Positions 15,607 through 29,581 are shown, numbered from the stretch's first letter. The stretch is 64,000 nucleotides of DNA from an uncultured Gammaproteobacteria bacterium (GCA_963711255.1 CAVQDO010000023.1:139933-203932); one strand, 5' to 3'. Notes: generated by a model from the sequence alone, not told the origin. Numbers and translations are program-made.

Positions 15607-16776
15607 ATGAACATGAAGGTAGCTTTGAGCATGTCAAGAATAAGTCCAGTTAAATTCTATTTTTATCTTTCACTAACGCTCATTTCCGGTTGGTCAGCAC
15701 AGTTGCAGGCAGATAATGTAATTACGGTTGGTGTTGCTCCGCATGGTGGTTACGTCATTCTTGGTGGCAGTGTTATTCCGCTTAAAGAGGTTACTCTTTC
15801 AGCACAAATGCCGGGACGCATTGTAAGTATTGCCGGTGAAGAAGGTGATGTTTTTACTGCGGGTACTGAACTGGTAAAGATAAATGATGATGATCTGCAG
15901 GCAAAGAAAGTTGCTGCCGAAGCGCAGATAAGTTCAGCCCAGAATTCTATGCAGAATGCGCAGGTTCAATACAATCGTGAATTGTGGAACCCGCGCGTTT
16001 ATAACCCGCGTCCTATGGCGGGCATGGGCATGCCTTCAATGTTTGATGGTTTTTTTGATAATGGAGTCATGCCGGGTAGTAACAGCGGCAATAAAAGCAT
16101 TGAAAGACATGCTGATCTGGTTACACAGGGAACACAGGTTTCATCATCACGTTCACAGTTGACAGAGGCAGAATCTGCTTTACGTGCTATCAATGCAAAA
16201 TTGCGAGATACCAAATCGATAGCTCCTTTTGACGGCATTATCATGCAAAAAATGATCGAGATTGGTGATACCGTTCAGCCTGGGCAGCCGCTCATCGTTT
16301 TTTCATATTCAAAATTCTTGCGTATACAGGCGGAAGTGCCGGCCAGGTTGATGCCCGGTCTGCAGAAAGGCATGGTTGTTCCGGCCAGGCTTGATGTCGG
16401 TAATACACAGATTAATGCACGTGTTGCTCAAATCTCTCCGATAGCCGATAACAAACAGCATACCGTGACGGTAAAATTTGATTTGCCTGAAGGTGTTCCT
16501 GGTGGCGCAGGGATGTATGCCGAAGTTATGATACCTGATATCAATTCACCCACTCGTGCACTGCCTGTAATACCAAAATCTGCTATCAGTAAACGAGGCA
16601 GTTTGCCTTCGGTCCAGGTACTTGATGAAAACAATGTGCCCAAGATGCGTTTGATTCGCACGGGTATCGAAATAGGTAACGATACTGTCATCGTGCTTTC
16701 CGGTATCAAACCCGGGGAAAGAATTCTGACCAATAGCGAAGAACCTAAGCCACCAATGCCATGGGGTGGCCAGTAG
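15607..16776 (+). CDS. RND efflux periplasmic adaptor (membrane fusion protein, HlyD family)
   Basis: 389 aa with an N-terminal hydrophobic anchor or signal, lipoyl-hairpin-like halves (GRIVSIAGEEGDVFTAGTELVKIND and APFDGIIMQKMIEIGDTVQPGQPLIVF), and a coiled-coil middle. Confidence 0.85.
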   Translation: MNMKVALSMSRISPVKFYFYLSLTLISGWSAQLQADNVITVGVAPHGGYVILGGSVIPLKEVTLSAQMPGRIVSIAGEEGDVFTAGTELVKINDDDLQAKKVAAEAQISSAQNSMQNAQVQYNRELWNPRVYNPRPMAGMGMPSMFDGFFDNGVMPGSNSGNKSIERHADLVTQGTQVSSSRSQLTEAESALRAINAKLRDTKSIAPFDGIIMQKMIEIGDTVQPGQPLIVFSYSKFLRIQAEVPARLMPGLQKGMVVPARLDVGNTQINARVAQISPIADNKQHTVTVKFDLPEGVPGGAGMYAEVMIPDINSPTRALPVIPKSAISKRGSLPSVQVLDENNVPKMRLIRTGIEIGNDTVIVLSGIKPGERILTNSEEPKPPMPWGGQ

Positions 16777-16933
16777 CAAGGTATTGTTTTCACGTCAGAT
16801 AATTTTATCGTGCCCTGAAGAGTAAAGCGTTCAGAGTAGTAATGAGTTGTCTTGTGTGTTTTCCTCAGCTTCATGTTGAGTGTTAAATGATGAGCGTTAA
16901 ACAACAGCCAGATAATAGAGTGATTGTTAGAAA

Positions 16934-19900
16934 ATGACTGACCAATTGGATAAAGATCAAGATAAAGATAAAGATGAAGACCTGAAATGTGATGTTCCAC
17001 CATCGGCATCGATTGGCGGTAAAGATCTCGGTCTTGCCGGTAATATAGCAAAAACTTTTATTAATTCACCTGTGACTCCGATGTTGTTAATAGCAACACT
17101 GCTTATCGGAATTAGTGGTTTGATCTTCACGCCAAGACAGGAAGATCCGCAGATTTCTGTCCCTATGATAGATATCTTTGTTTCCTATCCAGGTACTTCT
17201 GCTTCGCAGGTAGAAAGTCTGGTAACCGACCCGCTAGAAAGGCTGATGGATGAAATTCCAGGCGTGCGTCATACTTTTTCTGCTACACAGCGCGGTAATG
17301 CTATCGTTACTGTGCAGTTTTACGTGGGTGAAGATCTCGGTGAATCCATTGTTAAAGTAAACGATAAAATTCGTTCGAACATGGACATGATGCCGCCCGA
17401 TGTTTTACGACCCCTGGTTAAACCGGTTGCGATTGATGATGTGCCAACTGTGGCGGTTACGCTATGGTCGAAAGAAGTTGATGATAGTACCCTGCGTATT
17501 CTTGGTAATGATGTGCTGCAGGAGCTTGGGCAGGTTGTAAATACCGGTAAAGGTTTTGTCGTTGCAGGGCGTGCTGATCAGATTCGGGTAGAGGTATTGC
17601 CTGAGCGACTGGCAGGCTACGGTATTAGTTTGCAGCAGGTGGCGGGTGCTATAACTGCGGCCAATTCGCAGCAAAATGTTGGCGCGGTTGAGGCTGGCAG
17701 TACTTCATTTACCGTGTACTCAGGTTCATTCTTGCGTACAGCTGCAGATATTGAGCGTCTGGTTGTAGGCATGAACCATGGGGCGCCCGTTTATATGCAG
17801 GATGTGGCTGAAGTGTTTCATGGCCCTGAAGACGCTAATAATATTTCTTCCTATTATGCAGGGCCGGCTTACGAAGGTATTGAGCGACCTACCGGAGATC
17901 CTGCGGTAACCATTGCGATAGCCAAAAAAGAAGGAGCAAATGGTGTAACCGTTTCAAAATCAATTTTGAAAAAACTGGAAGAATTAAAAGGCACTATCAT
18001 TCCAGATAACGTACATGTGGAGATCACGCGAGACTACGGCAAATCGGCCAATGATAAAGTTAACGAGTTGCTGAGTGCAATGTTCGAAGCGACCGCAGCT
18101 GTCGCGATATTATGTTTGATTGGTTTGGGTTTTCGAGCGGCTTTTGTAGTGGTAACCGTTATTCCTGTGGTTATCCTGATTACTATCTGGTGGGCGTGGA
18201 TGGTGGATTACACTATTGACCGCGTCAGTATGTTCGCATTGATTTTCTCTATTGGTATTCTGGTAGACGATGCCACCGTGGTGGTGGAAAATATCTTCAG
18301 GCATTGGCTCATTAAAGGGCGAACCACTCTCGCTGATGCGGTTGATGCAGTTCGTGAAGTGGGTAATCCAACTATTTTGGCGACCTTTACCATTATCGCC
18401 GCACTGTTGCCTATGGGCTGGGTGAGCGGCATGATGGGCCCCTATATGCGCCCGATTCCAGTGATGGGCGCGTCAGCCATGTTTTTCTCATTGATTGCAG
18501 CATTTATTTTTACGCCGTGGTTTGCGGTGCGCGTTCGTCCGCAGTTGGAGGCTTTGAAAAAAGCCGAGAAACGAGAAGAGAAAACTCGCAAATTTGTTGC
18601 CGCTCTTTATCGCCCTCTCATTATGCCGCTGGTAAACAGCCGCAGGCTTGGTATCTTTTTCCTGATTGGTATTATCTGTGTTACCGCGATGACAATGTTG
18701 TTATTTTACCCAACGCAGTGGGTCGCGGTGAAAATGTTGCCGTTTGATAACAAACCAGAATTCAGTGTCGTTATTAATATGCCGGAAGGAACAGCAATGC
18801 CGGTTACGGCTAACCTGGCCCATGAGCTGGCAACTGCAATTAACCAGATGCCGGAAGTAGAAGCGGTGCAGAGTTATGCGGGTACAGCACAGCCATTCAA
18901 CTTTAATGGCATGGTCAGGCACTATTATCTGCGAAAACAACCCTGGCATGGCGATTTACTGGTGATGTTGAAAGAGAAACATGAACGAGAGAAAAGCAGT
19001 CACCAGATAGCAGAAGAAGCGCGCGCTTTATTAACGCCCATAGCGCAACGCGCAGGTGGTCGTATAGCGATTGTTGAAATGCCTCCGGGTCCACCTGTAT
19101 TGCAAACCGTGGTGGCTGAAATTCATGGCCCAGACGCAAAGACGCGACGCGAAGTTGCCAGCAAAATGACAGAGTTTTTTGAAAAAGCCGGTGGTGTTGT
19201 GGATGTAGATAATTACATGAATGAGCCTTCCCAGCATTGGCGTTTCGAAGTGAATAAAGAAAAGGCGATCCGCCGTGGTGTTACTGTTGACAGCATCAAT
19301 GGAACATTGGCGATGGCAATGGGTGGTTTCAAACTGGGTGATGTGAAACGCGCCTCAGTAATAGAGCCTACTTATATTGTGATTCAGGTACCAATGGCAA
19401 CGCGTTCACAGGTTAATCAGCTAAGTAACTTGCCCATGGTGACTTCCGATGGGACTATTGCCCCTCTGGGTGAACTGGGTCGTTTTATGCTTGAGTCGAA
19501 TGAACCCATTATCTGGCACAAAGATTTGCGCGATGTTGAATTTGTTGTCGGTGAGATGGAGGGTCGTCTGGGTGCGCCGATTTACGGTATGTTCAATGTA
19601 GAAGAATTTACCGATCAGTACACCACGCCTGATGGTGTCATCATGGAAGGCATGCCAATGAACCTGATTGGTCCACCTGACAGTGACACAAATTCAGGCT
19701 TCGAGTGGACTGGCGAATGGACTGTAACTTATGAAACATTCCGTGACATGGGGATTGCATTCATGGCAGCCCTGATATTGATTTATGGTTTGATTGTCTG
19801 GGAGTTCCGTGATTTTGCACTGGCGGGCCTGATCATGTCGCCCATTCCGCTAACCATGATTGGTATCGTACCTGGACACTGGTTTCATGGCGCTGAATTT

Positions 19901-20545
19901 ACCGCTACATCGATGATCGGTATGATCGCGTTGGGTGGAATTATCGTGCGGCAATCGATTCTAATTGTCGAGTTTGTGAAGATTGAAGTAGCGAAAGGTG
20001 TTCCAGTTAAAGAAGCCGCTGTTAACGGTGCGGAAATACGTATGCGGCCGATTTTCATTACTTCACTGACCTTGATGGCAGGTGCTTTTGCTATCCTTGA
20101 CGATCCTATCTTTAACGGCATGGCGATAAGCCTGTTATGGGGCGCGGGTGTTGGCACCCTGATGGCCGTTATTGTCATCCCGATGGGTTGTATCAGCAGC
20201 CGTGAAAACTTCTATTATGAAACATCGGATTCAGGTGAACGGGTGATTAGTAGTAAATTTGAAGAAATTGAAGGGGTAAAACCTTATCTGAATAACCTGC
20301 CCGAAGCCGAGGCTGAATATAAAGTACCGCTTTGGATGCGTATTTACAGTATTATAGTCAGTATTGTCGGCTGGCTATTTGTTATTGGCCAGATGATATT
20401 TAATCTCCTGCGAATGCTGTTTGGTATGGTAGTCGGTATGTTTGGTTCTGATTCAGAACCGCCTTCACCGCCCGCATCAACACCGCCAGCATCAACGCCA
20501 CCGACTCCGGCCACCTCCAGCTCCGCCGGCATCGCCAGCTTCTGA
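16934..20545 (+). CDS. RND-superfamily efflux permease with an extra C-terminal hydrophobic helix and a Pro/Ser/Thr tail
   Basis: 1203 aa with AcrB/CzcA-type architecture: two large periplasmic loops, FSIGILVDDATVVVENIFRH and GGIIVRQSILIVEFV. After the last canonical TM comes an extra hydrophobic stretch (LWMRIYSIIVSIVGWLFVIGQMIFNLLRMLFGMVVGMF), then SEPPSPPASTPPASTPPTPATSSS. Confidence 0.88.
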   Translation: MTDQLDKDQDKDKDEDLKCDVPPSASIGGKDLGLAGNIAKTFINSPVTPMLLIATLLIGISGLIFTPRQEDPQISVPMIDIFVSYPGTSASQVESLVTDPLERLMDEIPGVRHTFSATQRGNAIVTVQFYVGEDLGESIVKVNDKIRSNMDMMPPDVLRPLVKPVAIDDVPTVAVTLWSKEVDDSTLRILGNDVLQELGQVVNTGKGFVVAGRADQIRVEVLPERLAGYGISLQQVAGAITAANSQQNVGAVEAGSTSFTVYSGSFLRTAADIERLVVGMNHGAPVYMQDVAEVFHGPEDANNISSYYAGPAYEGIERPTGDPAVTIAIAKKEGANGVTVSKSILKKLEELKGTIIPDNVHVEITRDYGKSANDKVNELLSAMFEATAAVAILCLIGLGFRAAFVVVTVIPVVILITIWWAWMVDYTIDRVSMFALIFSIGILVDDATVVVENIFRHWLIKGRTTLADAVDAVREVGNPTILATFTIIAALLPMGWVSGMMGPYMRPIPVMGASAMFFSLIAAFIFTPWFAVRVRPQLEALKKAEKREEKTRKFVAALYRPLIMPLVNSRRLGIFFLIGIICVTAMTMLLFYPTQWVAVKMLPFDNKPEFSVVINMPEGTAMPVTANLAHELATAINQMPEVEAVQSYAGTAQPFNFNGMVRHYYLRKQPWHGDLLVMLKEKHEREKSSHQIAEEARALLTPIAQRAGGRIAIVEMPPGPPVLQTVVAEIHGPDAKTRREVASKMTEFFEKAGGVVDVDNYMNEPSQHWRFEVNKEKAIRRGVTVDSINGTLAMAMGGFKLGDVKRASVIEPTYIVIQVPMATRSQVNQLSNLPMVTSDGTIAPLGELGRFMLESNEPIIWHKDLRDVEFVVGEMEGRLGAPIYGMFNVEEFTDQYTTPDGVIMEGMPMNLIGPPDSDTNSGFEWTGEWTVTYETFRDMGIAFMAALILIYGLIVWEFRDFALAGLIMSPIPLTMIGIVPGHWFHGAEFTATSMIGMIALGGIIVRQSILIVEFVKIEVAKGVPVKEAAVNGAEIRMRPIFITSLTLMAGAFAILDDPIFNGMAISLLWGAGVGTLMAVIVIPMGCISSRENFYYETSDSGERVISSKFEEIEGVKPYLNNLPEAEAEYKVPLWMRIYSIIVSIVGWLFVIGQMIFNLLRMLFGMVVGMFGSDSEPPSPPASTPPASTPPTPATSSSAGIASF

Positions 20546-21008
20546 GGTTGAGGATAAGCCGGAGAAAAAAATCACTAAAAAGTCTACAGTGACTAAAAAG
20601 AGTGCGGCTAAAAAAACAGTAGCAAAGAAAATAGCGAATAAACCAGTTGCGCCTGTAAAAAAAGCGCCTAAGAACGAGGTCCTTAAAAAAGCGGTTTCTG
20701 ATATTGAAGCGCCTGTAACGGCGGCACCTGAAAAAGCTGCTTCAGAAAAAGTCGTTCCAGAACAAGTAGTTCCAGAACAAGCTGCTCCGGAAAAAGTCGT
20801 TCCGGAAAAAGCTGCACCTGAGCAGAAAATGGTTGCCCAAAAGCCGGTTACTGTAAAGAAAGTGGCTAAGAAAAAGTCTACCACTAAAGTGGCGACTCAG
20901 GCAGCAGCTAAGCCGACGACGGTTAAAAAGATTGCTGTTAAGAAAGCACCATCGAAAAAATCACCACCAGCTGGTCGTCGCGGTATTCGATTGAAGGACG
21001 ATGGTTAA
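20442..21008 (+). CDS. Lys/Ala/Pro-rich low-complexity ORF (histone H1/TolA/TonB-spacer-like composition); start unresolved, possibly a frame-shifted continuation of the RND gene
   Basis: The frame is open from a TTG at 20442 inside the RND gene. There is no ATG or GTG near the RND stop, and the first in-frame ATG is at ~20829. The sequence reads KKSTVTKKSAAKKTVAKKIANKPVAPVKKAPK, then PEKAASEKVVPEQVVPEQAAPEKVVPEKAAPEQK. The next gene follows after 20 nt. Confidence 0.45.
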   Translation: MVLIQNRLHRPHQHRQHQRHRLRPPPAPPASPASEVEDKPEKKITKKSTVTKKSAAKKTVAKKIANKPVAPVKKAPKNEVLKKAVSDIEAPVTAAPEKAASEKVVPEQVVPEQAAPEKVVPEKAAPEQKMVAQKPVTVKKVAKKKSTTKVATQAAAKPTTVKKIAVKKAPSKKSPPAGRRGIRLKDDG

Positions 21009-21028: not shown

Positions 21029-21628
21029 ATGTTTTGTAACACTGGTATTGATTACGTCATAAAAGTGGCTGTAGCCGTTCTGTTGTCTCAATCATTGCTT
21101 GTATATGCAAAAGATCAGGCTATAAATGCCTCTGAACCAGTAGTGAACGCAGCACCTGAATCTAGCATTAAAGCCCGACAGCAAGTACGTGGCTTACCTC
21201 GGTGGCCTGAGCATCGGCGGTCACGCATGATGGCAGAGATGCCGCCACCACCACCATCAGGTCCTTATATGTCCTCAGCATTAAGTGGTTCTTCTATTGA
21301 AGGACTGTCATTTGATGATGATAAATCTGCAATGAAATTTGAACCTCCCGCTCAGCGGATGGAAGCATTTGGTCCAGATACTCCCTGGCCAGGTAACTCA
21401 AATTCACTTAATCGATGGGTGCCTGAAAAAGGCTATAACTATGTGCAGCCGGTTGTAAAAAAACAACCATACCCGGGTGTGCGATATGATTTTCCGGTAA
21501 ATTATACTGACGGGTATAACCGAGGTCCGGGTATGAACATGCCTGGTATGAGAGGATCTTATGTGCAAAGGCCTAACACTGCTCCACCGGGGTATAGTCG
21601 GGGATATAATGCCCCCGCACAGAGGTGA
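21029..21628 (+). CDS. Secreted Pro/Gly/Tyr/Asn/Met-rich hypothetical protein
   Basis: 199 aa with a signal-like N-terminus (VIKVAVAVLLSQSLLVYA) and an RBS agaggtg. Low-complexity C-terminal half (GYNRGPGMNMPGMRGSYVQRPNTAPPGYSRGYNAPAQR). Confidence 0.6.
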   Translation: MFCNTGIDYVIKVAVAVLLSQSLLVYAKDQAINASEPVVNAAPESSIKARQQVRGLPRWPEHRRSRMMAEMPPPPPSGPYMSSALSGSSIEGLSFDDDKSAMKFEPPAQRMEAFGPDTPWPGNSNSLNRWVPEKGYNYVQPVVKKQPYPGVRYDFPVNYTDGYNRGPGMNMPGMRGSYVQRPNTAPPGYSRGYNAPAQR

Positions 21629-22713: not shown

Positions 22714-23145
22714 ATGAAATCAGTGATAAAAATGGCTGTTTTAACTGCAGCATTAGGCTTTGCCTTAGCGCCTTTATCTGCAGCTGCAGACTTTGATATG
22801 CCATGGGACAATAACAATAACAGCAGCAATAACTGGAACAACAATAACCGATGGAACAATGATGGTTATGGATCAGGTTATGGTGATGGTTATGGTGATG
22901 GTTCTGGTGATATGGATGGCAGCTTTAACTTTGGTATGAGTGGTAAAGGAAGCGGCCGTGGTCGTGGTGATGCTCGTAACCAGTACTACGGTAACGGTAG
23001 TAACAACTGGGATAATCGTTGGGATAATAATAGCGGTTATTATAATAACCGCGGCTATGGACGTCCATATTATGGTCCAGGCCCAGGTTACGGCCCAGGT
23101 CCATATGCACAGCCACCTGCGCCACAGGCTGCACCTGCACAATAA
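22714..23145 (+). CDS. Small secreted Gly/Asn/Tyr/Trp-rich protein (structural or sulfur-globule-protein-like composition)
   Basis: 143 aa with a Sec signal MKSVIKMAVLTAALGFALAPLSAAA. By hand count the 118-aa mature part has 25 Gly, 22 Asn, 12 Tyr and 5 Trp. A strong terminator directly follows the stop. Confidence 0.7.
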   Translation: MKSVIKMAVLTAALGFALAPLSAAADFDMPWDNNNNSSNNWNNNNRWNNDGYGSGYGDGYGDGSGDMDGSFNFGMSGKGSGRGRGDARNQYYGNGSNNWDNRWDNNSGYYNNRGYGRPYYGPGPGYGPGPYAQPPAPQAAPAQ

Positions 23146-23163
23146 GCGGCGTTTAGTATAATG

Positions 23164-23192
23164 ACGGTGTCGCTCTGACACCGTTTTTTTTT
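23164..23192 (+). terminator. Rho-independent terminator after the Gly/Asn/Tyr-rich gene
   Basis: acggtgtc (23164-23171) and gacaccgt (23177-23184) form a perfect 8-bp stem with a 5-nt loop. A run of 9 T follows (23184-23192). Confidence 0.8.
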
Positions 23193-23203: not shown

Positions 23204-24004
23204 ATGAAAAAAATATACATCCTTATTGCATTAATTTATTCAGTTTATGCCGTGCCTTTGTGTGCAGCATCTTTTACAGCTGATGCTGTGCAAATACGTG
23301 GTGAAAGCGTCAGCCAGGCAAAAATGTACTGGCGTGATGGGAATGTGCGTTTTGAATACATCGAGGATGATGTAAAAATGGCGCAAATTTTTGATAACAG
23401 TAATAATAAAATTATCTGGTTAGATAATGAGAATAAATTGTATCTGGAAAAGGAAATGCCAGAGAGTGAAAAAGTCATTGCAGGTAGTAAATCGAAAAAA
23501 GGATCTACAAAACAAACAGATCCCTGCGGGCAGTTTGCTGGTGCCGAATGTGTTTTTCTAAAGAAAACAGAGATTAATGGCCGCGCTGCGGAAAAATGGT
23601 TGATTACACTAAATAGTAATGGACGAGATTTTCACGTTTTTCAGTGGATTGATTCTAAATATAAAAATATACTCAGACAGGAAAATTCTGATGGCTCCGG
23701 ACTGGAGGTAACACTGCTGGATAAGCAGGAGATAAATAACCGCAAGGTCAGAAAGCTGGCTATAGTTGCCTTTAGTGCCAGCGGCGAGCAGCAGAAGGGA
23801 ACGCAGTGGTATGATAATGAGCTGGATATTGTTGTCAGGCAGGAGTATCAGGATGACGTTATAGATGAGCTGCGCAATATTAAAGTTGGTAAAGTGAGCA
23901 AAAAGCTATTTACTGTACCTGAGGATTACGCATTATTTGATAGTACGATATATACCGAGCCAGTGGATGATGCGGCCGAGCTGGCAAGTAAGGATGCAGA
24001 ATAG
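23204..24004 (+). CDS. Exported hypothetical protein
   Basis: ORF with a signal-like N-terminus MKKIYILIALIYSVYAVPLCAASFTADA. I prefer the ATG at 23204 because the track start (TTG 23195) abuts the terminator T-run. I recognised no family motif. Confidence 0.65.
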   Translation: MKKIYILIALIYSVYAVPLCAASFTADAVQIRGESVSQAKMYWRDGNVRFEYIEDDVKMAQIFDNSNNKIIWLDNENKLYLEKEMPESEKVIAGSKSKKGSTKQTDPCGQFAGAECVFLKKTEINGRAAEKWLITLNSNGRDFHVFQWIDSKYKNILRQENSDGSGLEVTLLDKQEINNRKVRKLAIVAFSASGEQQKGTQWYDNELDIVVRQEYQDDVIDELRNIKVGKVSKKLFTVPEDYALFDSTIYTEPVDDAAELASKDAE

Positions 24005-24095: not shown

Positions 24096-24722
24096 ATGTT
24101 GACAGTCGTAGGGAATTTGAAAGGGGGTACTGGCAAAAGTACCGTGGCATTTAATCTTGCTGTATGGCTGGCGCATGATAAGACTGGCGTTAGAGCGTTT
24201 GACCTTGACCCGCAATGTACATTAGTTGATGTTTGTGAGGTTCGTGAAGAAGATGGTTACGAGCCGATGTTTGATGTTTCAACAGATGTAAACGAACTTG
24301 AAGAGCTCGCGTCTGATAAAAAGAACAGGCAGCCGATTATTGTTGATATGAGCGCCAGTAATATGCCGGCCATGGAAAAGGCAATATCACTAGCGAACCG
24401 GATTTTAATTCCGGTGCAGCCCAGTCAGGCGGATATCTGGTCGACGCAACGATTTTTAAAAATCATTGCCAACAGCTTAAATGGCAATACGCCTGAAGTT
24501 CTGGGTTTTATTAATCGAGCAGATACCCATATCGGTGTTCGTGAGACGGATGAGGCGGAGCAGGCGCTACAGATGTTGCAGGGAATTAAAGCAATGGATA
24601 TTCGTCTATATCAACGTACTGCTTACCGCCGTTCGTTTAGTGAAGGATTGGGTGTGTTTGAGCTGGACCCCATGGGGAAAGCTTCAAAAGAAATGAAAAT
24701 GCTGGCTACAATGCTGGATTAA
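24096..24722 (+). CDS. ParA/MinD-family (deviant Walker A) ATPase, short orphan type
   Basis: 208 aa with VVGNLKGGTGKSTVAFNLA (KGGxxGK[ST]). No parB or plasmid/partition context. Confidence 0.85.
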   Translation: MLTVVGNLKGGTGKSTVAFNLAVWLAHDKTGVRAFDLDPQCTLVDVCEVREEDGYEPMFDVSTDVNELEELASDKKNRQPIIVDMSASNMPAMEKAISLANRILIPVQPSQADIWSTQRFLKIIANSLNGNTPEVLGFINRADTHIGVRETDEAEQALQMLQGIKAMDIRLYQRTAYRRSFSEGLGVFELDPMGKASKEMKMLATMLD

Positions 24723-24806: not shown

Positions 24807-26120
24807 ATGAAAATTATTCGTTGGTTGCTAAGTCATACTATTCTTATCCTGTTAATAATCGCGGTTATTTATGGCTATATGTTCTGGGGAAACCTTGCTG
24901 GTGAAGACACGCCAGCAGGTAAAGCGCTTGCCTACCTTTCGAATGAATTTGTAGAAGTTGAAGAGTTTATAGCATCAGTCAAAGAGAAGCAGGCCGAGCG
25001 TAATCAGGACGATTCTATGGCTAGCGCGTCCGAAGCTGAGCAGCAAGCCGATATTGGCAGCGATACCGGGGGAGATGCCGGCGAAGATGTTGCCAGCGTT
25101 GTAGCTGCTGAAGAAGACCAGGCTGCAACGACAGGGATTGCTAATACAACGCTTGCCAGCACAGCGGCTGATTCGACAAATGGCAGCGAGCTGCAACAAC
25201 AGCCGGTCAATATTAGTTATAGCCATAATGACAGGCCGGTAACACAGAATTCGTCGGCTATTAGCGAAGCCGGGTCAATGCAGCAGGGTAAAGCCTCAGC
25301 TGCAGCAGCGACAGCCTTAACATCTGCCACATCAGAAAGTAGTATGAAAAGCAATGCTGGACAGAGCAAGGCTGTGCAGAGCAATGCTGAGATGAGTAAT
25401 GCCGAGCAGGGTAAAGCCTCAGCTGCAGTAGCGACAGCCTTAACATCTGCCACATCAGAAACTAGTATGAAAAGCAATGCTGGACAGAGCAAGGCTGTGC
25501 AGAGCAACGCTGAGATGAGTAATGCCGAGCAGGGTAAAGCCTCAGCTGCAGCAGCGACAGCCTTAACATCTGCCGCATCAGAAACTAGTATGAAGAACAA
25601 TGCTGGGCAGAGCAATGCTGAGATGAGTAATGCCGAGCAGGGAAATGCCGCGTCTGGGCGAGCTCCAGGTCCAGAAAAAACACAATCTGCACAGCTGCCG
25701 CCAAAGAAAGCCAGGCAGGCATCAGGAACCTTTGTTTCAGCGGAATTAGAGAAACAGCTTAATAAAGTTGATGAGAATGGTGTTCCCGTAAAGGCGTCGC
25801 TAGCTGAAAGTGAAGTCAGAGAAAGCTGGATTTTGGCGCGCAAATCGTTTTATCTGCGTAACTATAAGCTCTCAGAAAAAAGTTATCGCAATGTTATTGA
25901 AAATACCGACGATAATTATGATGCATACGGTGAGTTAGGAAATGTTTATTTTAACCAGGGAAAGAGGCGGGAAGCAGCAGCTGCTTACTATGAAGCCGCA
26001 GCTATCTTAGTGAGAAAAGGGCAGGTAAATCGCGCAAAAAGTTTGCTTGGTTTGTTGCGTAACCTGGATAAAACAAAAGCAGACGAATTGAAAAAATTAA
26101 TTGATTCGTCTTTATCTTAA
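24807..26120 (+). CDS. Bitopic membrane protein: N-terminal TM, acidic/Ser-Ala-Thr-Asn tandem repeats, C-terminal TPR-like domain
   Basis: 437 aa. TM segment WLLSHTILILLIIAVIYGYMFWG. About three copies of a 41-aa repeat (QGKASAAAATALTSATSESSMKSNAGQSKAVQSNAEMSNAE). TPR-like C-terminus (YGELGNVYFNQGKRREAAAAYYEAAAILVRKGQVNRA). Confidence 0.75.
   Translation: MKIIRWLLSHTILILLIIAVIYGYMFWGNLAGEDTPAGKALAYLSNEFVEVEEFIASVKEKQAERNQDDSMASASEAEQQADIGSDTGGDAGEDVASVVAAEEDQAATTGIANTTLASTAADSTNGSELQQQPVNISYSHNDRPVTQNSSAISEAGSMQQGKASAAAATALTSATSESSMKSNAGQSKAVQSNAEMSNAEQGKASAAVATALTSATSETSMKSNAGQSKAVQSNAEMSNAEQGKASAAAATALTSAASETSMKNNAGQSNAEMSNAEQGNAASGRAPGPEKTQSAQLPPKKARQASGTFVSAELEKQLNKVDENGVPVKASLAESEVRESWILARKSFYLRNYKLSEKSYRNVIENTDDNYDAYGELGNVYFNQGKRREAAAAYYEAAAILVRKGQVNRAKSLLGLLRNLDKTKADELKKLIDSSLS
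25284..25637 (+). repeat. In-frame tandem repeat, 123-bp unit, 2.9 copies
   Basis: Units start at 25284, 25407 and 25530. Units 1 and 2 differ at 3 of 123 nt by eye. Unit 3 carries a 15-nt deletion plus a few substitutions. Confidence 0.9.
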
Positions 26121-26150: not shown

Positions 26151-26741
26151 ATGTTTTATGCATTACGAAATTTATTCGCATTAGTTGGTTTTATTTCGAT
26201 TGTTGTTGCAATTTATGCAGCTGTAAAAATAGCACCAATGATGCAGGCTTTTGACGCGTTTGATGAGAAAGCCATCGATGTATACAGTGAGATGGTGACT
26301 AAAATCCTTGAAACGGGAAATACCGCTGAAGCAACAGTCTGGAAAGTTCAGGTTAACGAAGACCTGACCGCGAAAGATGTTGAAGAGACCATGAAGTTTG
26401 TCGCTAATGAGCACAACATCAAAAACGTGGGCGAGCTTCCGCTGTCTGGAGAGGTCGAAGCTATGTCGGGAGAGAAATCCCGTTTCTTTAAAATTTACAT
26501 GTTCTGTAATGCGTTAACAGCAGCACAGATGCTTGAGTACAGTGATGCTTATTCTGCTTATTTACCCTGCCGCGTCAGCATGGTTGAAGATAAAGAAGGC
26601 AAACTTTGGCTATACTCATTAAATATGGATGCCATGATTTATGGTGGTACACCTTTACCTGCAGATTTAAAAACAGAAGCTGAAGGTGTGAAGGAGATTA
26701 TCCTGGATATTATGAACAGGGGCGCTGAAGGCGATTTCTAA
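26151..26741 (+). CDS. Membrane-anchored DUF302-like protein
   Basis: 196 aa with an N-terminal TM (LFALVGFISIVVAIYAAVKI). The C-terminal part resembles DUF302 (FKIYMFCNALTAAQMLEYSDAYSAYLPCRVSMVEDKEGKLWLYSLN). Confidence 0.65.
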   Translation: MFYALRNLFALVGFISIVVAIYAAVKIAPMMQAFDAFDEKAIDVYSEMVTKILETGNTAEATVWKVQVNEDLTAKDVEETMKFVANEHNIKNVGELPLSGEVEAMSGEKSRFFKIYMFCNALTAAQMLEYSDAYSAYLPCRVSMVEDKEGKLWLYSLNMDAMIYGGTPLPADLKTEAEGVKEIILDIMNRGAEGDF

Positions 26742-26742
26742 G

Positions 26743-27951
26743 ATGACAACGAATAAAACGGTAGATGATAAATCTACTGACAAGCCGGATACCACTAAAG
26801 CTTCCACGGCTAAAAGTGACACAGCTGCTAAAAGTAAAAGCACTGCTAATAAAGCCAGTGAAACGACGGTTAAGAAAGAGTCGGCGACTGTCGCAGCTAA
26901 AAAAGATTCAGCTGCAGTAGCCGATAAGTCCGCAGCTAAAAAAGATTCAACTGCACAGAAAACTTCTGTGGCTAATGAAGATGTGATAAGCAAGACTACT
27001 GCCGCAACACAGAAGGCGGCTGCTTCAAAAGAATCTGATATGAAAGCGGCGGTGAAGAAGATTAGCGAACTGGATAAAATTGCCGCCGATAATGCGATTA
27101 AGTCAAAAAAAGGCGCCGAAGATTTAAAAGCACGTGCACATGAAGCCAGGTTACGCGCCCAGGAAAAGATACTTGAAAAGTCATACGTCAGTGATCCGCC
27201 AGAAGACCCGTTGGAACGTCTGGCTAATACCTTTGACAACAGTGCCAGGCGCTGGGAAATGGTGGTTTACCCGTCATTATTTGCCTTTGTACTGTTAGCA
27301 GGTTATGGCTTCTTCCTGATCTATCGACTAACGCATGATATTGCCGTATTGTCGCAATCCGTAACACATATGGCGGTTATTGTTTCTGATGCCATGCCGC
27401 GTATGACCAAGGATTTAAATTTGATGACCGGCAGTATTGATAATATGACGGGTAATATTGATGGTATGTCGACAGAAATCAGTTCGATGTCTGGCCAGAT
27501 GAACAGTCTGACGCCAATGAGTAAAAATATAAGTAGTATGACGCATAACATTGGCAGCATGAATCGTTCAGTATATGGCATGCAGCGTGATATCGGTGGC
27601 ATGAACCGTACCGTATCCAGTGGCCCGTTGGGTATGATGAACGATGTTATGCCGTTTAGTTCTTCATCGAATGTACCGCAACCTCTGGCACCATCGCCTG
27701 TGTGGCCGGCTTATAATCCAGCACCCTATAATTACGGGGCACCGAATATGCAAAACCAAAGGCAAAACCAGAGACCTGCGGCTAGAAGCACACCCAAGCC
27801 TGCTGCCAAGCCACAGCCTGTAGCAAAGCCAAAGGCTGTGGAAGAGGCAGAAGTAGCGTTAAAAAAAAAGCCGCTAAGTTCGTTGCCGCCACTCAATAGT
27901 AAACAGCTGTCTACCCCGCTAAAGAAATTTAGCAGTGAAGATTTGAAGTAA
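26743..27951 (+). CDS. Bitopic membrane protein with a Lys/Ala/Ser/Thr-rich N-half, Met-phased heptad repeats and a Pro-rich C-terminus
   Basis: 402 aa; the start is 1 nt after the upstream stop. TM segment WEMVVYPSLFAFVLLAGYGFFLIY. Ten heptads M-x3-(I/V/M/L)-x2: MTKDLNL MTGSIDN MTGNIDG MSTEISS MSGQMNS (LTP) MSKNISS MTHNIGS MNRSVYG MQRDIGG MNRTVSS. Confidence 0.7.
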   Translation: MTTNKTVDDKSTDKPDTTKASTAKSDTAAKSKSTANKASETTVKKESATVAAKKDSAAVADKSAAKKDSTAQKTSVANEDVISKTTAATQKAAASKESDMKAAVKKISELDKIAADNAIKSKKGAEDLKARAHEARLRAQEKILEKSYVSDPPEDPLERLANTFDNSARRWEMVVYPSLFAFVLLAGYGFFLIYRLTHDIAVLSQSVTHMAVIVSDAMPRMTKDLNLMTGSIDNMTGNIDGMSTEISSMSGQMNSLTPMSKNISSMTHNIGSMNRSVYGMQRDIGGMNRTVSSGPLGMMNDVMPFSSSSNVPQPLAPSPVWPAYNPAPYNYGAPNMQNQRQNQRPAARSTPKPAAKPQPVAKPKAVEEAEVALKKKPLSSLPPLNSKQLSTPLKKFSSEDLK

Positions 27952-28039
27952 AATGTAAATGTGCCTGCCGCTAGTGCAGGTGGCACTTAGAAAGTTATAA
28001 ACCTATCCATAATTTATTAAACAGCAGGTTCTATCAGCT

Positions 28040-29581
28040 ATGTTAAATCGCCCAGATAAGTCCATTCGAGAACGATTGACGAAACTGGAGACGCATTTAA
28101 ATAATGAAAATCCATTGTTACTTGACGTAGTTTCGCGATTCAAAAAGCTTGATACAGTGGCCTATAAAATGGGCCTTCTGGATACGCGGGAATCCTATGC
28201 CACTAGTATTCCGTGGTGGCCGCTGGTTTCCATTCTTGGGACATTCTCTGCCGGTAAATCTTCATTTATCAATAATTTCCTCGGTGATAAATTACAGCTG
28301 ACCGGCAACCAGGCAGTCGATGATAAATTCACGGTAGTAACATACAGCAACAGCAAAGAACATCGTGTATTACCTGGCGTGGCGTTAAATTCTGATCCGC
28401 GTTTTCCTTTTTACCAGATGAGTGATGAGATCGATAAGGTTTCTATTGGTGAGGGCAGGCGTATTGATGCTTATCTGCAAATGAAAACATCGCATTCAGA
28501 TAAATTAAGCGGCAAGATTATTATCGATTCTCCCGGCTTTGATGCAGACGAACAACGTAATGCGATATTGCGTTTAACCGACCATATCGTTGATCTGTCA
28601 GATTTAGTGCTGGTGTTTTTTGATGCGCGCCACCCGGAACCGGGCGCCATGCATGATACCCTGGATCACCTTGTTGGTAATACGATTATTCGCAGTGATT
28701 CTGAAAAGTTTTTATATATACTCAACCAGATCGACACTGCGGCGCAGGAAGACAACCCTGAAGCGGTGGTCGCATCATGGCAACGTGCACTGGCGGCTAA
28801 AGGATTAACGGCCGGGCGTTTTTATACTATTTATAATCAGGATGTGGCTGTACCAATCGAAGATGTGGCGGTGCGTCAGCGTTTTGAGAAAAAATGTGAA
28901 CAGGATAAATCGGCCATATTTGAGCGTATACACCAGGTTGAAGTTGAACGCTCTTATCGTATTGTGGGTGCACTTGAGACAATAGCCACAGATATTGAGA
29001 GCCAGGTGGTTCCCATGGTTAAAGAAGCCATGACGCAATGGTTGAAACTGGTATTGAAACTTGATGCGGCAGCAATTGTCCTCTTTGTTATTTTATTATT
29101 TGCCCTGTCCCAGGTTTTTGATGCCTGGGCGCTGTTCTCTTATGATTTTTCTGCTGATAGTATTGTTTCTTCTATCAAGTTAGGCTTAACCTTAATTGGG
29201 TTTATTATCGTGCATTTTTATGCGCGCAGTTTTGCGGCGAAACGCATTGCTAAGAAGCTGGTGAGTAAAATTGTTATTGATAAAAGTCTGGCGGGTAAGC
29301 ATCGCGAAGGTAATACTCTGGCAGGAAATATTAAACAGGCTTTCCTGAAAAACACACAGCCACTACGCAGTATTTTCAGGCCAATGCCGGTTGGCTGGTC
29401 TATGCGTTCAAAACGTGTTCTGGCAGAAGTCATTGCAGATTCCAGTGAACTGATACAGACAATGAATGATCGTTATACACGGCCTTCCGGTGAAGCAGCG
29501 CCGCAACCGGCCGCTGCAGAAAGTGATACTGCAGAGGTCGAAACCTTGAAGGCAGTCAAGTCTTCAAGTGAGATAGAATAA
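28040..29581 (+). CDS. Dynamin-family (bacterial dynamin-like) GTPase with a C-terminal membrane hairpin
   Basis: 513 aa. G1 is GTFSAGKSSFIN, G3 is IIDSPGFD, and G4-like is ILNQIDT. Two C-terminal hydrophobic segments (AAAIVLFVILLFALSQVF and LGLTLIGFIIVHFYA). Confidence 0.75.
   Translation: MLNRPDKSIRERLTKLETHLNNENPLLLDVVSRFKKLDTVAYKMGLLDTRESYATSIPWWPLVSILGTFSAGKSSFINNFLGDKLQLTGNQAVDDKFTVVTYSNSKEHRVLPGVALNSDPRFPFYQMSDEIDKVSIGEGRRIDAYLQMKTSHSDKLSGKIIIDSPGFDADEQRNAILRLTDHIVDLSDLVLVFFDARHPEPGAMHDTLDHLVGNTIIRSDSEKFLYILNQIDTAAQEDNPEAVVASWQRALAAKGLTAGRFYTIYNQDVAVPIEDVAVRQRFEKKCEQDKSAIFERIHQVEVERSYRIVGALETIATDIESQVVPMVKEAMTQWLKLVLKLDAAAIVLFVILLFALSQVFDAWALFSYDFSADSIVSSIKLGLTLIGFIIVHFYARSFAAKRIAKKLVSKIVIDKSLAGKHREGNTLAGNIKQAFLKNTQPLRSIFRPMPVGWSMRSKRVLAEVIADSSELIQTMNDRYTRPSGEAAPQPAAAESDTAEVETLKAVKSSSEIE

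What the first reader, a model, noticed from the sequence alone, without database searches (positions are those of the whole stretch)
15607..29581. Candidate undescribed envelope or inclusion biogenesis and positioning cluster between epmA and psd
About 14 kb lies between two housekeeping blocks, all on the + strand, and only generic family labels can be assigned. In order it holds:
- an MFP plus RND pump with no outer-membrane factor gene
- a Lys/Ala/Pro-rich tail ORF
- three ORFs with signal-peptide-like N-termini and extreme composition (Pro/Gly/Tyr/Asn/Met; Gln/Asn/Gly/Tyr; Gly/Asn/Tyr/Trp)
- an exported 269-aa protein
- a short ParA/MinD-type ATPase (KGGTGKST)
- a TM, 41-aa-repeat and TPR protein
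- a TM-anchored DUF302-like protein
- a bitopic protein with ten Met-phased heptads
- a dynamin-type GTPase with a C-terminal membrane hairpin

From 24096 to 29581 the spacers are only 84, 30, 1 and 88 nt, which fits an operon. A positioning ATPase, a TPR scaffold, a membrane-remodelling GTPase and secreted self-assembly-type proteins together are what one would expect for building or placing an envelope-associated structure or inclusion, such as sulfur-globule-like bodies or a cyst/sheath matrix. I know of no described system with this gene content. The functional reading is inference only.
Basis: partly seen in the sequence, partly recalled or inferred. Interest (0 to 1): 0.82.

Follow-up and report, generated by a model that had tools for sequence, protein, structure and literature searches.

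The report
Sulfur-oxidizer pump–ParA–dynamin gene cluster
A ten-gene block conserved in many sulfur-oxidising bacteria, including tubeworm and clam symbionts, joins an unusual membrane pump, a sulfur-globule coat protein, a cargo-positioning ATPase and a dynamin-like protein, and may be undescribed machinery for building and distributing sulfur storage globules.

Summary
In detail: every ORF, spacer, repeat and motif is at the stated coordinates. There are two corrections.
- The Lys/Ala/Pro-rich ORF is not a gene. It is the frameshifted C-terminal tail of the RND pump, so there are ten products, not eleven.
- The Gly/Asn/Tyr ORF is a real sulfur globule protein (Pfam SGP, above threshold).

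Of 54 loci with enough upstream DNA around a homologue of the dynamin-like gene, 44 carry at least three of the partner genes. They span uncultured Thiotrichales-like lineages, Sedimenticola, Ca. Endoriftia, Ca. Thiodiazotropha, Thiohalobacter and Chromatiales, while the flanking housekeeping genes differ.

New points:
- The exported 269-aa protein belongs to the DUF4412/LolA-like group.
- The Met-heptad protein is a DUF948-like coiled coil.
- The pump tail ends in a near-invariant RRGIRLK motif. That tail is missing exactly in the loci that lack ParA.

Best reading (about 0.4): a module that loads, anchors, spaces and wraps periplasmic sulfur globules. The function is inferred, not shown. No paper in the searchable library describes this cluster.

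The parts
15607..16776 (+). Periplasmic adaptor (MFP) of the RND pump. Its alpha-hairpin tip carries a family-specific insertion, GGMG-P-x-[LM]-FDQMFT-like.
   Evidence: TIGR01730 RND_mfp scores 155 bits against a cut-off of 94.9, and HlyD_3/HlyD_D23 also match. The insertion is conserved in all 20 orthologues aligned.
16934..20545 (+). Divergent RND permease core, followed by an extra hydrophobic segment at about aa 1131-1168 and the start of a Pro-rich linker. The reading frame breaks near 20500-20512.
   Evidence: Pfam ACR_tran scores 465 bits. Every NCBIfam subfamily model scores below its cut-off (best 415 against 1250). Hydropathy is and the frameshift.
20442..21008 (+). Not a separate gene. 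This is the Lys/Ala/Pro-rich, histone-H1-like C-terminal tail of the RND pump, ending ...SPPAGRRGIRLKDDG. The real tail sequence starts at about 20511.
   Evidence: The tail is fused to the pump in L001, L005-L009, L018-L023, L029-L032, L045 and others. The RRGIRLK-type motif is present in 32 of 37 full-length orthologues. There is a weak HC2 hit.
21029..21628 (+). Exported low-complexity protein (Pro/Ser/Gly-rich, with Tyr/Asn/Met patches). It evolves fast and has homologues at the same cluster position in 17 of the 83 loci (L001-L035).
   Evidence: It has a hydrophobic N-terminus and no Pfam or NCBIfam hit. Orthologues at 31-43% identity sit in the same position in 17 loci.
21792..22565 (+). 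Exported low-complexity protein (Gly/Gln/Pro/Asn/Tyr-rich), with homologues at the same cluster position in 14 of the 83 loci (L001-L021).
   Evidence: No family hit. Orthologues occur in 14 loci.
22714..23145 (+). Sulfur globule protein of the SgpA/B type: signal peptide, then a Gly/Asn/Tyr-rich mature part of about 12 kDa.
   Evidence: PF17228 SGP scores 34.2 bits against a cut-off of 26.7. 15 of 18 orthologues in the same cluster position match SGP, best E-value 5.9e-17.
23163..23185 (+). Terminator-like hairpin (10-bp stem followed by T9) directly after the sgp gene.
   Evidence: This is a consensus match only.
23204..24004 (+). Periplasmic DUF4412/LolA-like protein with a conserved Cys pair. 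The ORF finder starts it at the TTG at 23195.
   Evidence: The window protein itself is sub-threshold (17.1 against 21.6). 12 of 16 family members hit DUF4412 (best 3.8e-10) and 2 hit LolA_like. The AF2 model is all-beta but poor (pLDDT 54). Foldseek top hits are LolA3, RseB and LolA-like, all weak. Cys108 and Cys116 are invariant.
24096..24722 (+). Small ParA/ParF-type P-loop ATPase with the deviant Walker A motif KGGTGKST.
   Evidence: CbiA scores 48 bits and AAA_31 45.7 bits, both above cut-off. NF041546 ParA_partition scores 130 bits, below its cut-off of 180. The best PDB sequence match is ParF of TP228.
24807..26120 (+). Bitopic protein: N-terminal TM helix, acidic Ser/Ala-rich linker with 2.8 copies of a 41-aa repeat (DNA 25282-25620), and C-terminal TPR.
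   Evidence: Several TPR models hit aa 348-400, all below their cut-offs. Repeat, TM helix. Homologues occur in 54 of 83 loci.
26151..26741 (+). TM-anchored DUF302 protein.
   Evidence: PF03625 scores 41.2 bits against a cut-off of 23. TM helix at 1-34. Homologues occur in 38 of 83 loci.
26743..27951 (+). Bitopic protein: Lys/Ala/Ser-rich N-terminal tail, a TM helix preceded by SARRWE, a Met/Asn/Ser heptad coiled coil (DUF948-like), a conserved ..GP.xxMNxxMP[WF] motif, and a lineage-specific Pro/Lys-rich extension.
   Evidence: 16 of 16 orthologues give weak DUF948 hits, best 7.6e-7. The profile matches antiparallel coiled coils and MCP signalling domains in the PDB. Homologues occur in 53 of 83 loci.
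28040..29581 (+). Membrane-anchored dynamin-like GTPase: N-terminal helical hairpin, GTPase domain, long helices with a hydrophobic hairpin at about 333-394, and a conserved C-terminal region.
   Evidence: Dynamin_N scores 53.4 bits against a cut-off of 27. The motifs GTFSAGKS, DSPG and NQID are visible in the sequence. The AF2 model has pLDDT 61.6. Foldseek top hits are LeoA, IIGP1 and EHD4, all weak. The family is compact: 106 representatives at 50% identity with E<=1e-30 among 1.84 billion.

Best explanation
Window 15607-29581 is one vertically inherited, widely conserved gene cluster of sulfur-oxidising Gammaproteobacteria. I read it as a module that assembles, feeds, anchors and distributes periplasmic sulfur globules. 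Only the parts list and the synteny are shown; every step below is inferred.

Proposed mechanism:
1. A divergent RND pump and its adaptor work without an outer-membrane channel. The adaptor's hairpin tip, which normally docks the channel, carries a conserved Met-rich insertion instead.
2. The pump takes a very hydrophobic cargo from the outer leaflet of the inner membrane. The cargo is most plausibly zero-valent sulfur or polysulfane made by membrane-bound sulfide oxidation, or else a hydrophobic globule constituent. The pump hands it to the periplasm, with the DUF4412/LolA-like protein acting as carrier.
3. The Sec-exported low-complexity proteins, one of them a real SgpA/B-type protein, form the globule coat or matrix.
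4. Three membrane-anchored proteins tie the globule to the membrane: the TPR protein, the DUF302 protein and the Met-rich coiled-coil protein.
5. The pump's C-terminal module is a re-entrant hydrophobic hairpin, a Pro-rich linker and a histone-H1-like tail ending in RRGIRLK. It stays in the cytoplasm and is the partner of the ParF-like ATPase, which spaces the complexes along the nucleoid so that daughter cells inherit globules.
6. The hairpin-anchored dynamin-like GTPase shapes or repairs the inner membrane as globules swell in the periplasm.
For: Shown:
- The gene order MFP, RND, secreted low-complexity genes, DUF4412-like, ParA, TPR, DUF302, Met coiled coil, DLP recurs across families while the flanking genes change. 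In Sedimenticolaceae it is split into two divergent units. 44 of 54 loci with at least 9.6 kb of upstream DNA hold at least 3 partner genes.
- An SGP-family gene lies in the cluster just upstream of the DUF4412-like gene in 32 loci. 15 of 18 tested match PF17228.
- The named hosts are overwhelmingly sulfur oxidisers, many of which store globules: Sedimenticola, the Ridgeia/Riftia-type endosymbiont, Ca. Thiodiazotropha, a Solemya symbiont, Thiohalobacter, Thiogranum and Chromatiaceae.
- DUF302 genes sit in soxCD-less sox clusters elsewhere (PMC5037610).
- sgpD of Allochromatium vinosum lies next to a hydrophobe/amphiphile exporter gene, which is an RND-type pump (PMC10386293).
- The pump tail with RRGIRLK co-varies with ParA. 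32 tailed pumps all sit in loci with ParA. The 4 tail-less pumps are exactly the loci without ParA, and the one apparent exception is a frameshift.
- Both flanks of the extra hydrophobic segment are basic. This fits a re-entrant hairpin with a cytoplasmic tail.
- The adaptor hairpin-tip insertion is conserved in all 20 orthologues, and no outer-membrane factor gene is in any locus inspected.
- The DUF4412/LolA-like family carries a conserved Cys pair, which fits a periplasmic carrier of hydrophobic cargo.
Against: - There are no expression, localisation or genetic data for any gene here.
- Sedimenticolaceae clusters carry other secreted Pro/Arg/Tyr-rich proteins that do not match SGP, so the Sgp link is not universal.
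- SUP05 bacteria make globules and have sgp genes but no dynamin (PMC6509183). The module therefore cannot be generally required for globules.
- Some hosts are labelled Ectothiorhodospiraceae, a family that deposits sulfur outside the cell (PMC10386293).
- The tail/ParA co-variation rests on a single clade, so it is effectively one evolutionary event.
- Known ParA partners use N-terminal peptides, not C-terminal ones (PMC11407121).
- The topology of the pump tail is not established. If the extra segment is a single transmembrane pass, the tail is periplasmic and cannot touch ParA.
- Both structure models are of low confidence.
- In A. vinosum the gene that follows sgpD (Alvin_2516), which may or may not be the exporter, is not sulfide-regulated.
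Confidence: 0.4

Rival explanations
1. This is an envelope lipid or lipoprotein trafficking and membrane-maintenance module with no specific tie to sulfur storage. The channel-less RND pump plus a LolA-like periplasmic carrier would move a lipid or lipoprotein, as HpnN or MmpL3 with LprG-type carriers do. The dynamin-like protein would repair or remodel the inner membrane under stress, as DynA and IniA do. The sgp-type genes would be passengers.
For: The pump belongs to the RND superfamily but to no named subfamily. DUF4412/LolA-like hits are found across the carrier family. Sedimenticolaceae clusters lack SGP-family genes. The DLP also occurs alone in genomes without the partner genes: Granulosicoccus, Competibacteraceae and Magnetococcus. 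The roles of bacterial DLPs in membrane repair are from my own knowledge.
Against: This reading does not explain why exported Gly/Tyr- or Pro/Tyr-rich structural-type proteins always sit between the pump and the carrier gene. It does not explain why an SGP-family gene holds a fixed position in 32 loci. It also does not explain why the hosts are almost all sulfur oxidisers.
Confidence: 0.25
2. This is a soft-metal (Cu(I)/Ag(I)-type) or other toxicant efflux and sequestration system. Met-rich loops in the adaptor, in one secreted protein and in the Met-heptad protein would bind the metal, and the pump would clear the periplasm.
For: Met-rich motifs occur in the adaptor tip, in the protein at 21029-21628 and in the Met-heptad protein. 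CzcB/NccB and CusA/CzcA models give sub-threshold hits. A PCuAC/LpqE-like gene lies nearby at 30465-30911.
Against: The CusA/CzcA model scores 239 bits against a cut-off of 701, lower than the multidrug-type models. The Met spacing is heptad (a/e-type coiled coil), not an MxxM-type cluster. There is no CusF or CusC homologue. This reading does not explain ParA, the DLP, the SGP gene or the LolA-like protein. The LpqE-like gene is syntenic only in close relatives.
Confidence: 0.1
3. The cluster positions or builds a different envelope-spanning structure, such as a polar or lateral organelle, a matrix or amyloid-like surface layer, or a division-related apparatus. The low-complexity proteins would be its building blocks.
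For: The secreted proteins are Gln/Asn/Gly/Tyr-rich, as self-assembling proteins are. ParA-family ATPases position many kinds of cargo (PMC11407121).
Against: No pilus, secretin, amyloid-secretion or divisome gene is present in any locus. The one low-complexity protein that can be classified is a sulfur globule protein.
Confidence: 0.1
4. The genes are unrelated neighbours placed between two housekeeping blocks by chance.
For: A terminator-like hairpin follows the sgp gene, so there is more than one transcription unit.
Against: The partner genes stay together across orders while the flanks change, and they keep their order even when split into divergent units.
Confidence: 0.03

Closest known systems
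Sulfur globule envelope proteins SgpA/SgpB/SgpC/SgpD of Allochromatium vinosum (Pfam PF17228)
   Same: ORF 22714-23145 has a Sec-type signal peptide and a small Gly/Tyr-rich mature part, and it matches PF17228 above threshold. sgpD in A. vinosum also lies beside an RND-type exporter gene (PMC10386293).
   Different: Per PMC10386293, sgpD has its own promoter and terminator and appears to be a separate transcription unit. No linkage of sgp genes to ParA, DLP, LolA-like or DUF302 genes is reported there. Here the sgp gene is a fixed member of a ten-gene cluster.
ParA/MinD cargo-positioning systems (ParF-ParG of TP228, McdA-McdB for carboxysomes, PpfA/ParC for chemoreceptor arrays, PomXYZ)
   Same: This is a small ParF-like ATPase with a deviant Walker A motif. 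A candidate partner carries a conserved basic peptide on a flexible tail. The logic would be the same: spacing a bulky cargo over the nucleoid.
   Different: There is no ParB or centromere. The putative partner is the C-terminal tail of an RND pump, a membrane protein, and the motif is C-terminal rather than N-terminal. The cargo would lie in the periplasm. The 2024 review lists no such cargo (PMC11407121).
Bacterial dynamin-like proteins (LeoA, Nostoc BDLP, DynA, IniA) and EHD ATPases
   Same: It has a Dynamin_N GTPase domain and a helical stalk, and it inserts into the membrane through hydrophobic helices. The best fold matches are LeoA, IIGP1 and EHD4.
   Different: It is shorter (513 aa) and occurs as a single copy rather than a tandem pair. 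It forms a compact, slowly evolving family of its own, at least 50% identical across orders. Its G4 motif reads NQID. Its fixed partners are a pump and a ParA.
RND tripartite pumps (AcrAB-TolC, CusCBA) and channel-independent RND lipid exporters (HpnN; MmpL3 with LolA-like LprG-type carriers)
   Same: It has a 12-TM ACR_tran core with the TM4 Asp-Asp pair (VDDA) and a cognate adaptor. Like the lipid exporters, it has no outer-membrane factor and has a LolA-like periplasmic protein next door.
   Different: It scores below every NCBIfam subfamily cut-off. Its adaptor hairpin tip is replaced by a conserved Met-rich insertion. It has a unique C-terminal module: a hydrophobic hairpin, a Pro-rich linker, and a Lys/Ala tail ending in RRGIRLK.
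DUF302 genes inside soxCD-less sox clusters of Acidithiobacillia, Thiohalorhabdus and Thiobacillus
   Same: It is a DUF302 domain protein of about 190-200 aa in a sulfur-oxidation gene context.
   Different: Here it is TM-anchored and lies in a cluster without sox genes. Its function is unknown in both settings.

Membership tests
Sulfur globule protein family (PF17228), for ORF 22714-23145 | Match to the family HMM above the curated cut-off | tested here: met
   34.2 bits against 26.7. 15 of 18 positional orthologues match, best E-value 5.9e-17. The composition is biased, so scores may be somewhat inflated.
Sulfur globule protein family (PF17228), for ORF 22714-23145 | Sec signal peptide and a small Gly/Tyr-rich mature protein | tested here: met
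   The N-terminus is MKSVIKMAVLTAALGFALAPLSAAADF. Composition is Gly 18%, Asn 15%, Tyr 8%, in 143 aa. No dedicated signal-peptide predictor was available.
Sulfur globule protein family (PF17228), for ORF 22714-23145 | Location in the envelope of sulfur globules | not testable with these tools
   This needs globule proteomics or a fluorescent fusion.
Tripartite RND efflux pump (AcrAB-TolC or CusCBA type) | RND permease of the ACR_tran family with a cognate periplasmic adaptor | tested here: met
   ACR_tran scores 465 bits. RND_mfp scores 155 bits against 94.9.
Tripartite RND efflux pump (AcrAB-TolC or CusCBA type) | Membership of a named subfamily (HAE1 multidrug or HME metal) | tested here: not met
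   The best scores are 415 against 1250 (RND_permease_2) and 239 against 701 (CusA/CzcA).
Tripartite RND efflux pump (AcrAB-TolC or CusCBA type) | An outer-membrane factor partner, with an adaptor hairpin able to dock it | tested here: inconclusive
   No OMF gene is in the window cluster or in the related loci inspected. The hairpin tip carries a conserved insertion. An OMF encoded elsewhere in the genome cannot be excluded.
ParA/MinD positioning ATPase system | Deviant Walker A motif KGGxxK[ST] and the family fold | tested here: met
   The motif is KGGTGKST. CbiA and AAA_31 score above cut-off. The closest solved relative is ParF.
ParA/MinD positioning ATPase system | Equivalog-level match to plasmid or chromosome partition ParA, with an adjacent ParB-type partner | tested here: not met
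   NF041546 scores 130 bits against 180. No ParB-like gene is in any locus.
ParA/MinD positioning ATPase system | A partner protein whose basic peptide stimulates the ATPase and links it to the cargo | tested here: inconclusive
   The candidate is the RND tail ending in RRGIRLK. It is present in all 32 tailed pumps whose loci have ParA, and absent in the 4 loci without ParA. This is one clade and there is no biochemistry.
Bacterial dynamin-like proteins | Dynamin_N GTPase domain with G1 and G3 motifs | tested here: met
   53.4 bits against 27. GTFSAGKS, DSPG and the G4 variant NQID are in the sequence.
Bacterial dynamin-like proteins | Helical stalk with a membrane-inserting element, and fold similarity to solved DLPs | tested here: inconclusive
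   The AF2 model shows long helices and a hydrophobic hairpin, but mean pLDDT is 61.6. Foldseek top hits are LeoA, IIGP1 and EHD4 at E>=3.7e-3 and TM<=0.40.
Bacterial dynamin-like proteins | Nucleotide-dependent membrane remodelling | not testable with these tools
   This needs liposome assays.
DUF4412 / LolA-like periplasmic carriers, for ORF 23204-24004 | Match to DUF4412 or LolA_like HMMs | tested here: inconclusive
   The window protein scores 17.1 bits against 21.6. 12 of 16 family members hit DUF4412 (best 3.8e-10) and 2 hit LolA_like. The model is too poor for a firm fold match. The family profile finds nothing in PDB sequences.
Known anti-phage defence systems (including dynamin-type) | Match of any cluster protein to a PADLOC model | tested here: not met
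   No hit for 7 of 8 proteins. ParA gives only a 13.5-bit P-loop match.

The most novel reading that the evidence does not exclude
The cluster encodes a dedicated organelle-biogenesis and inheritance system for periplasmic sulfur globules. An RND pump would act as a sulfur loader rather than an efflux pump. Its cytoplasmic tail would make the pump the direct cargo-adaptor of a ParA ATPase, giving positioning across the membrane of a compartment that lies outside the cytoplasm. A dynamin-like GTPase would wrap the inner membrane around the growing globule.
Probability: 0.25. Interest if true: 0.9.

Novelty: new variant of a known kind. Interest (0 to 1): 0.74.

Why it matters
How sulfur bacteria move zero-valent sulfur into and out of globules is an old open question. 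So are how globules are nucleated, held at the membrane and shared between daughter cells. So far only the coat proteins (Sgp) are known.

This cluster offers ten concrete candidate genes. They are present in culturable Sedimenticola and in the best-studied chemosynthetic symbionts (Endoriftia, Thiodiazotropha), so the question becomes testable by deletion, tagging and globule proteomics.

Two points would matter beyond sulfur biology:
- A ParA-type ATPase whose partner may be the tail of an RND pump would add a new kind of cargo to the ParA/MinD family.
- A channel-less RND pump paired with a LolA-like protein and a single-copy dynamin-like protein would broaden what these families are thought to do in Gram-negative envelopes.

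Tried and rejected
- **Defence system.** PADLOC gave nothing for 8 cluster proteins.
- **Regulatory RNA or tRNA landmarks.** No Rfam match in 13000-31000 and no tRNA in the window.
- **Foreign island.** GC content and skew are like the rest of the window.
- **Structure route for the 269-aa protein.** AF2 on 25 close homologues gave pLDDT 54. Foldseek pointed weakly to LolA and RseB. A family profile against PDB sequences found nothing. The family assignment rests instead on DUF4412 hits in distant orthologues.
- **Structure route for the DLP.** The model had pLDDT 61.6 and gave only weak dynamin-superfamily matches.
[quoted passage not shown] I rejected this as the same system because their neighbours are NifX-like proteins, not a pump or a DLP.
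- **Neighbours of DLP genes that stand alone.** There is no conserved context shared with each other or with the cluster.
- **Copper-efflux reading.** Kept only as a minor rival.
- **Literature.** Searches combining sulfur globule with dynamin, efflux, RND, ParA and DUF302, and Allochromatium with dynamin, found no description of the cluster. Two of these searches were badly designed and returned only noise.
- **Whether A. vinosum, Beggiatoa or Thiothrix carry the cluster.** I could not test this, because the single genome-collection scan returned only the best 80 of more than 566 loci.

Full report
**1. What is in the sequence**

GC content across the stretch is 0.43-0.48, like the rest of the window, so nothing suggests a foreign island.

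Family scans gave the following.

| Gene | Result |
|---|---|
| MFP | RND_mfp 155 bits, above cut-off |
| RND | ACR_tran 465 bits; below every NCBIfam subfamily cut-off (best 415 against 1250; CusA/CzcA 239 against 701) |
| ORF 22714-23145 | Pfam SGP 'sulphur globule protein' 34.2 bits against 26.7 |
| 269-aa protein | weak DUF4412 |
| ParA | CbiA and AAA_31 above cut-off; ParA_partition 130 against 180 |
| TPR protein | several weak TPR hits at aa 348-400 |
| DUF302 protein | 41 bits against 23 |
| Met-heptad protein | nothing significant |
| DLP | Dynamin_N 53 bits against 27 |

- The 41-aa repeat is a 123-nt unit in 2.8 copies at 95% match.
- Met residues fall every seventh position, at 221-249 and 259-287.
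- Hydropathy shows N-terminal hydrophobic segments on the four exported proteins, single N-terminal TM helices on the TPR and DUF302 proteins, one TM helix at 173-197 in the Met-heptad protein, and a hydrophobic hairpin at 333-394 in the DLP.

**2. First correction: the Lys/Ala/Pro ORF is the pump's tail**

In relatives the pump is a single ORF of 1190-1440 aa. It consists of the RND core, an extra hydrophobic segment (YKTPLWMRIY...GW..VIGQMIFN...), a Pro-rich linker, and a Lys/Ala-rich tail that ends in ...RRGIRLK followed by a few acidic residues.

In the window the same sequence is read in two frames, which switch near 20500-20512. Locus L013 has a similar break. This may be an assembly error or a real mutation, and I could not decide which. 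Either way the cluster has ten products, not eleven.

**3.

The DLP has more than 5000 homologues in the protein collection. The closest come from uncultured marine and hydrothermal Gammaproteobacteria. A scan of one genome per species found relatives in at least 566 stretches, and the best 80 loci were fetched.

Both tblastn and iterated profile searches of the window proteins against these loci show the same partners next to the DLP. This holds not only in close relatives, where psd, prmB and aroC are also syntenic. It also holds in Sedimenticola, Thiohalobacter, Thiogranum, Thiohalomonadaceae, Chromatiales and MAGs labelled Ectothiorhodospiraceae, where the flanking genes differ.

Of 54 loci with at least 9.6 kb upstream of the DLP, 44 carry at least three partner genes and 9 carry none.

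In Sedimenticolaceae the MFP, RND, secreted-protein, DUF4412-like, ParA and DUF302 genes lie on the opposite strand, divergent from the DLP. This group includes the endosymbiont of the tubeworm Ridgeia and Ca. Thiodiazotropha endolucinida. The association survives this rearrangement, which argues for function rather than inertia.

DLP genes that stand alone occur in Granulosicoccus, Competibacteraceae, Magnetococcus and others. They share no conserved context.

The DLP family itself is compact. Only 106 representatives at 50% identity reach E<=1e-30 among 1.84 billion, and many of those are fragments. It also evolves slowly, staying at least 50% identical across orders.

**4. What the parts are**

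*Sulfur globule protein.* The orthologues in distant loci sit directly upstream of the DUF4412-like gene. They share a signal peptide ending ..SAxAWW, a GDGDFxMNFSGRGSGRGYGRGY core and a PYGAPYG-rich end. 15 of 18 match PF17228, best E-value 5.9e-17. A terminator-like hairpin follows the window gene. According to PMC10386293, sgpD of Allochromatium vinosum appears to be its own transcription unit.

*The other two low-complexity proteins.* They have homologues at this position in only 17 and 14 of the 83 loci (L001-L035) and evolve fast. Sedimenticolaceae have different Pro/Arg/Tyr-rich secreted proteins with YRFRP-like motifs at this position, and these match no family.

*The 269-aa protein.* Its family has an invariant Cys pair. 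12 of 16 diverse members hit DUF4412 (best 3.8e-10) and 2 hit LolA_like. The AF2 model is all-beta but poor, and Foldseek ranks LolA3, RseB and a LolA-like protein first. I take it as a LolA-like periplasmic protein with moderate confidence.

*The Met-heptad protein.* Its conserved core runs as follows: SARRWE, a TM helix (VVYPSLFAFILLAxYGFFLIY), Met/Asn/Ser heptads, then ..SGPMxFMNSFMPW. All 16 members give weak DUF948 hits. The profile matches antiparallel coiled coils and chemoreceptor signalling domains. The window version adds a Lys-rich N-terminal tail and a Pro/Lys-rich C-terminal extension.

*ParA.* It is closest to ParF of plasmid TP228 among solved structures.

*DLP.* The model has an N-terminal helical hairpin, a GTPase domain, long helices and the hydrophobic hairpin. 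Foldseek's first hits are LeoA, IIGP1 and EHD4, all weak.

*MFP.* The tip of its alpha-hairpin is where canonical adaptors meet the outer-membrane channel. Here it carries an insertion, GGMG[LMI]P[NS][LM]FDQMFT, conserved in all 20 orthologues. No outer-membrane factor gene is in any locus inspected.

**5. A link between the pump tail and ParA**

The RRGIRLK-type motif ends 32 of 37 full-length pumps. One of the other five is the frameshifted L013. The remaining four (L036, L038, L048, L067, a Thiohalobacter-like group) stop right after TM12 at about 1120 aa. They lack the extra hydrophobic segment, the linker and the tail. These four are exactly the loci in which ParA is missing, with the DUF4412-like and TPR genes abutting. 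Fisher's exact test gives p = 7.6e-5, but the four loci form one clade, so this counts as one event.

Both flanks of the extra hydrophobic segment are basic. By the positive-inside rule, which is established knowledge, this fits a re-entrant hairpin that leaves the tail in the cytoplasm, where ParA is. ParA-family ATPases are known to be driven by short basic peptides on flexible parts of partner proteins, usually N-terminal ones (PMC11407121). I therefore propose the pump tail as the ParA partner. This is inference.

**6. Link to sulfur**

Three independent lines point to periplasmic sulfur chemistry.
- The SGP gene sits inside the cluster.
- The named carriers are nearly all sulfur oxidisers, including globule-storing symbionts.
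- DUF302 genes lie within soxCD-less sox clusters in other sulfur oxidisers (PMC5037610).

In addition, sgpD of A. vinosum lies next to a hydrophobe/amphiphile exporter gene (PMC10386293). Globules in these bacteria are periplasmic and their coat proteins are Sec-exported (same paper). That matches the predicted location of most cluster products.

Points against:
- SUP05 bacteria have sgp genes and globules but no dynamin (PMC6509183).
- Sedimenticolaceae clusters have no SGP-family member.
- Some carrier MAGs are labelled Ectothiorhodospiraceae, a family that deposits sulfur outside the cell (PMC10386293).

**7. Mechanism proposed, and rivals**

Best reading, about 0.4: this is a sulfur-globule assembly, loading, anchoring and partitioning module.
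- The pump, the adaptor and the LolA-like protein move hydrophobic sulfur, or another hydrophobic constituent, from the membrane to the globule.
- The secreted proteins form the coat.
- The three bitopic proteins tether the globule to the membrane.
- ParA spaces the complexes through the pump tail.
- The DLP shapes the inner membrane around the globule.

Rivals:
- A lipid or lipoprotein trafficking and membrane-repair module with passenger sgp genes (0.25).
- Soft-metal efflux suggested by the Met-rich motifs (0.1).
- Some other envelope structure (0.1).
- Chance juxtaposition (0.03), which the synteny already contradicts.

None of the cluster proteins matches a known defence system.

**8. Comparison with what is known, and novelty**

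Every part belongs to, or resembles, a known family: Sgp, RND/MFP, LolA-like, ParA/ParF, TPR, DUF302, DUF948-like and dynamin-like. The combination is not described in any paper I could find. A 2024 review of ParA/MinD cargos lists chromosomes, plasmids, the divisome, microcompartments, flagella, chemoreceptor arrays and conjugation machinery. It lists no storage globules and no pumps.

I rate it a new variant of known kinds: a ParA-positioned cargo, and sulfur-globule genes with a new and much larger genetic context. I do not rate it categorically new, because no function has been shown.

**9. Limits**

- The genome scan kept only the best 80 loci, so I could not check Allochromatium, Beggiatoa or Thiothrix.
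- Both structure models are weak.
- Signal peptides and topology were judged from sequence and hydropathy only.
- Operon structure is untested.

Noticed in passing
window 20480-20545: A one-base frameshift in the Pro-rich linker splits the RND pump from its conserved tail. L013 (CAWBXM010000071.1) has a similar break in the same repetitive stretch, so these may be assembly errors in low-complexity DNA.
   Followed up: partly
L036, L038, L048, L067 (also L042, L082, L083): A Thiohalobacter-like group has the cluster without ParA. In the four loci with a full-length pump (L036, L038, L048, L067) the pump is about 1120 aa and lacks the extra hydrophobic segment and the RRGIRLK tail. The DUF4412-like and TPR genes are then directly adjacent. 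In L042, L082 and L083 the pump gene is cut off or missing, so its tail could not be checked.
   Followed up: yes
L029, L045, L084, L085 (Sedimenticolaceae, Chromatiaceae MAG): Instead of SGP-family genes, these clusters carry secreted Pro/Arg/Tyr/Phe-rich proteins of 150-435 aa with repeated YRFRP-like motifs and no Pfam match. A conserved 131-aa gene without a family precedes the MFP gene in L084 and L085.
   Followed up: partly
L043, L049, L050, L052, L053, L062, L069, L073, L078, L080: Close homologues of the DLP (51-55% identical) stand alone in Granulosicoccus, Competibacteraceae, Magnetococcus and other MAGs, with no shared neighbours.
   Followed up: partly
L056, L060, L061, L079, L081: In one subgroup the Met coiled-coil protein starts with a conserved basic peptide, MPIKRLY[HQ]KLT. 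This could be a second ParA-interacting peptide.
   Followed up: no
window 10664-12496 (-) and 8532-10622 (-): A 610-aa ORF with no NCBIfam match lies directly downstream of a GGDEF-EAL protein gene.
   Followed up: no
window 30465-30911 (-): An LpqE-like (PF04314) gene sits between psd and prmB. It is syntenic with the cluster in close relatives but absent from the loci of distant ones (L028 onward).
   Followed up: partly
window 56226-57803 (+): A 525-aa ORF has no NCBIfam match at E<=1e-10.
   Followed up: no
window 40195-43233 (+): A FimV/HubP-family polar landmark protein of 1012 aa is encoded about 10 kb downstream of the cluster.
   Followed up: no
literature: A. vinosum Alvin_1737-1741: [quoted passage not shown] This is a different gene set from the cluster studied here.
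   Followed up: partly
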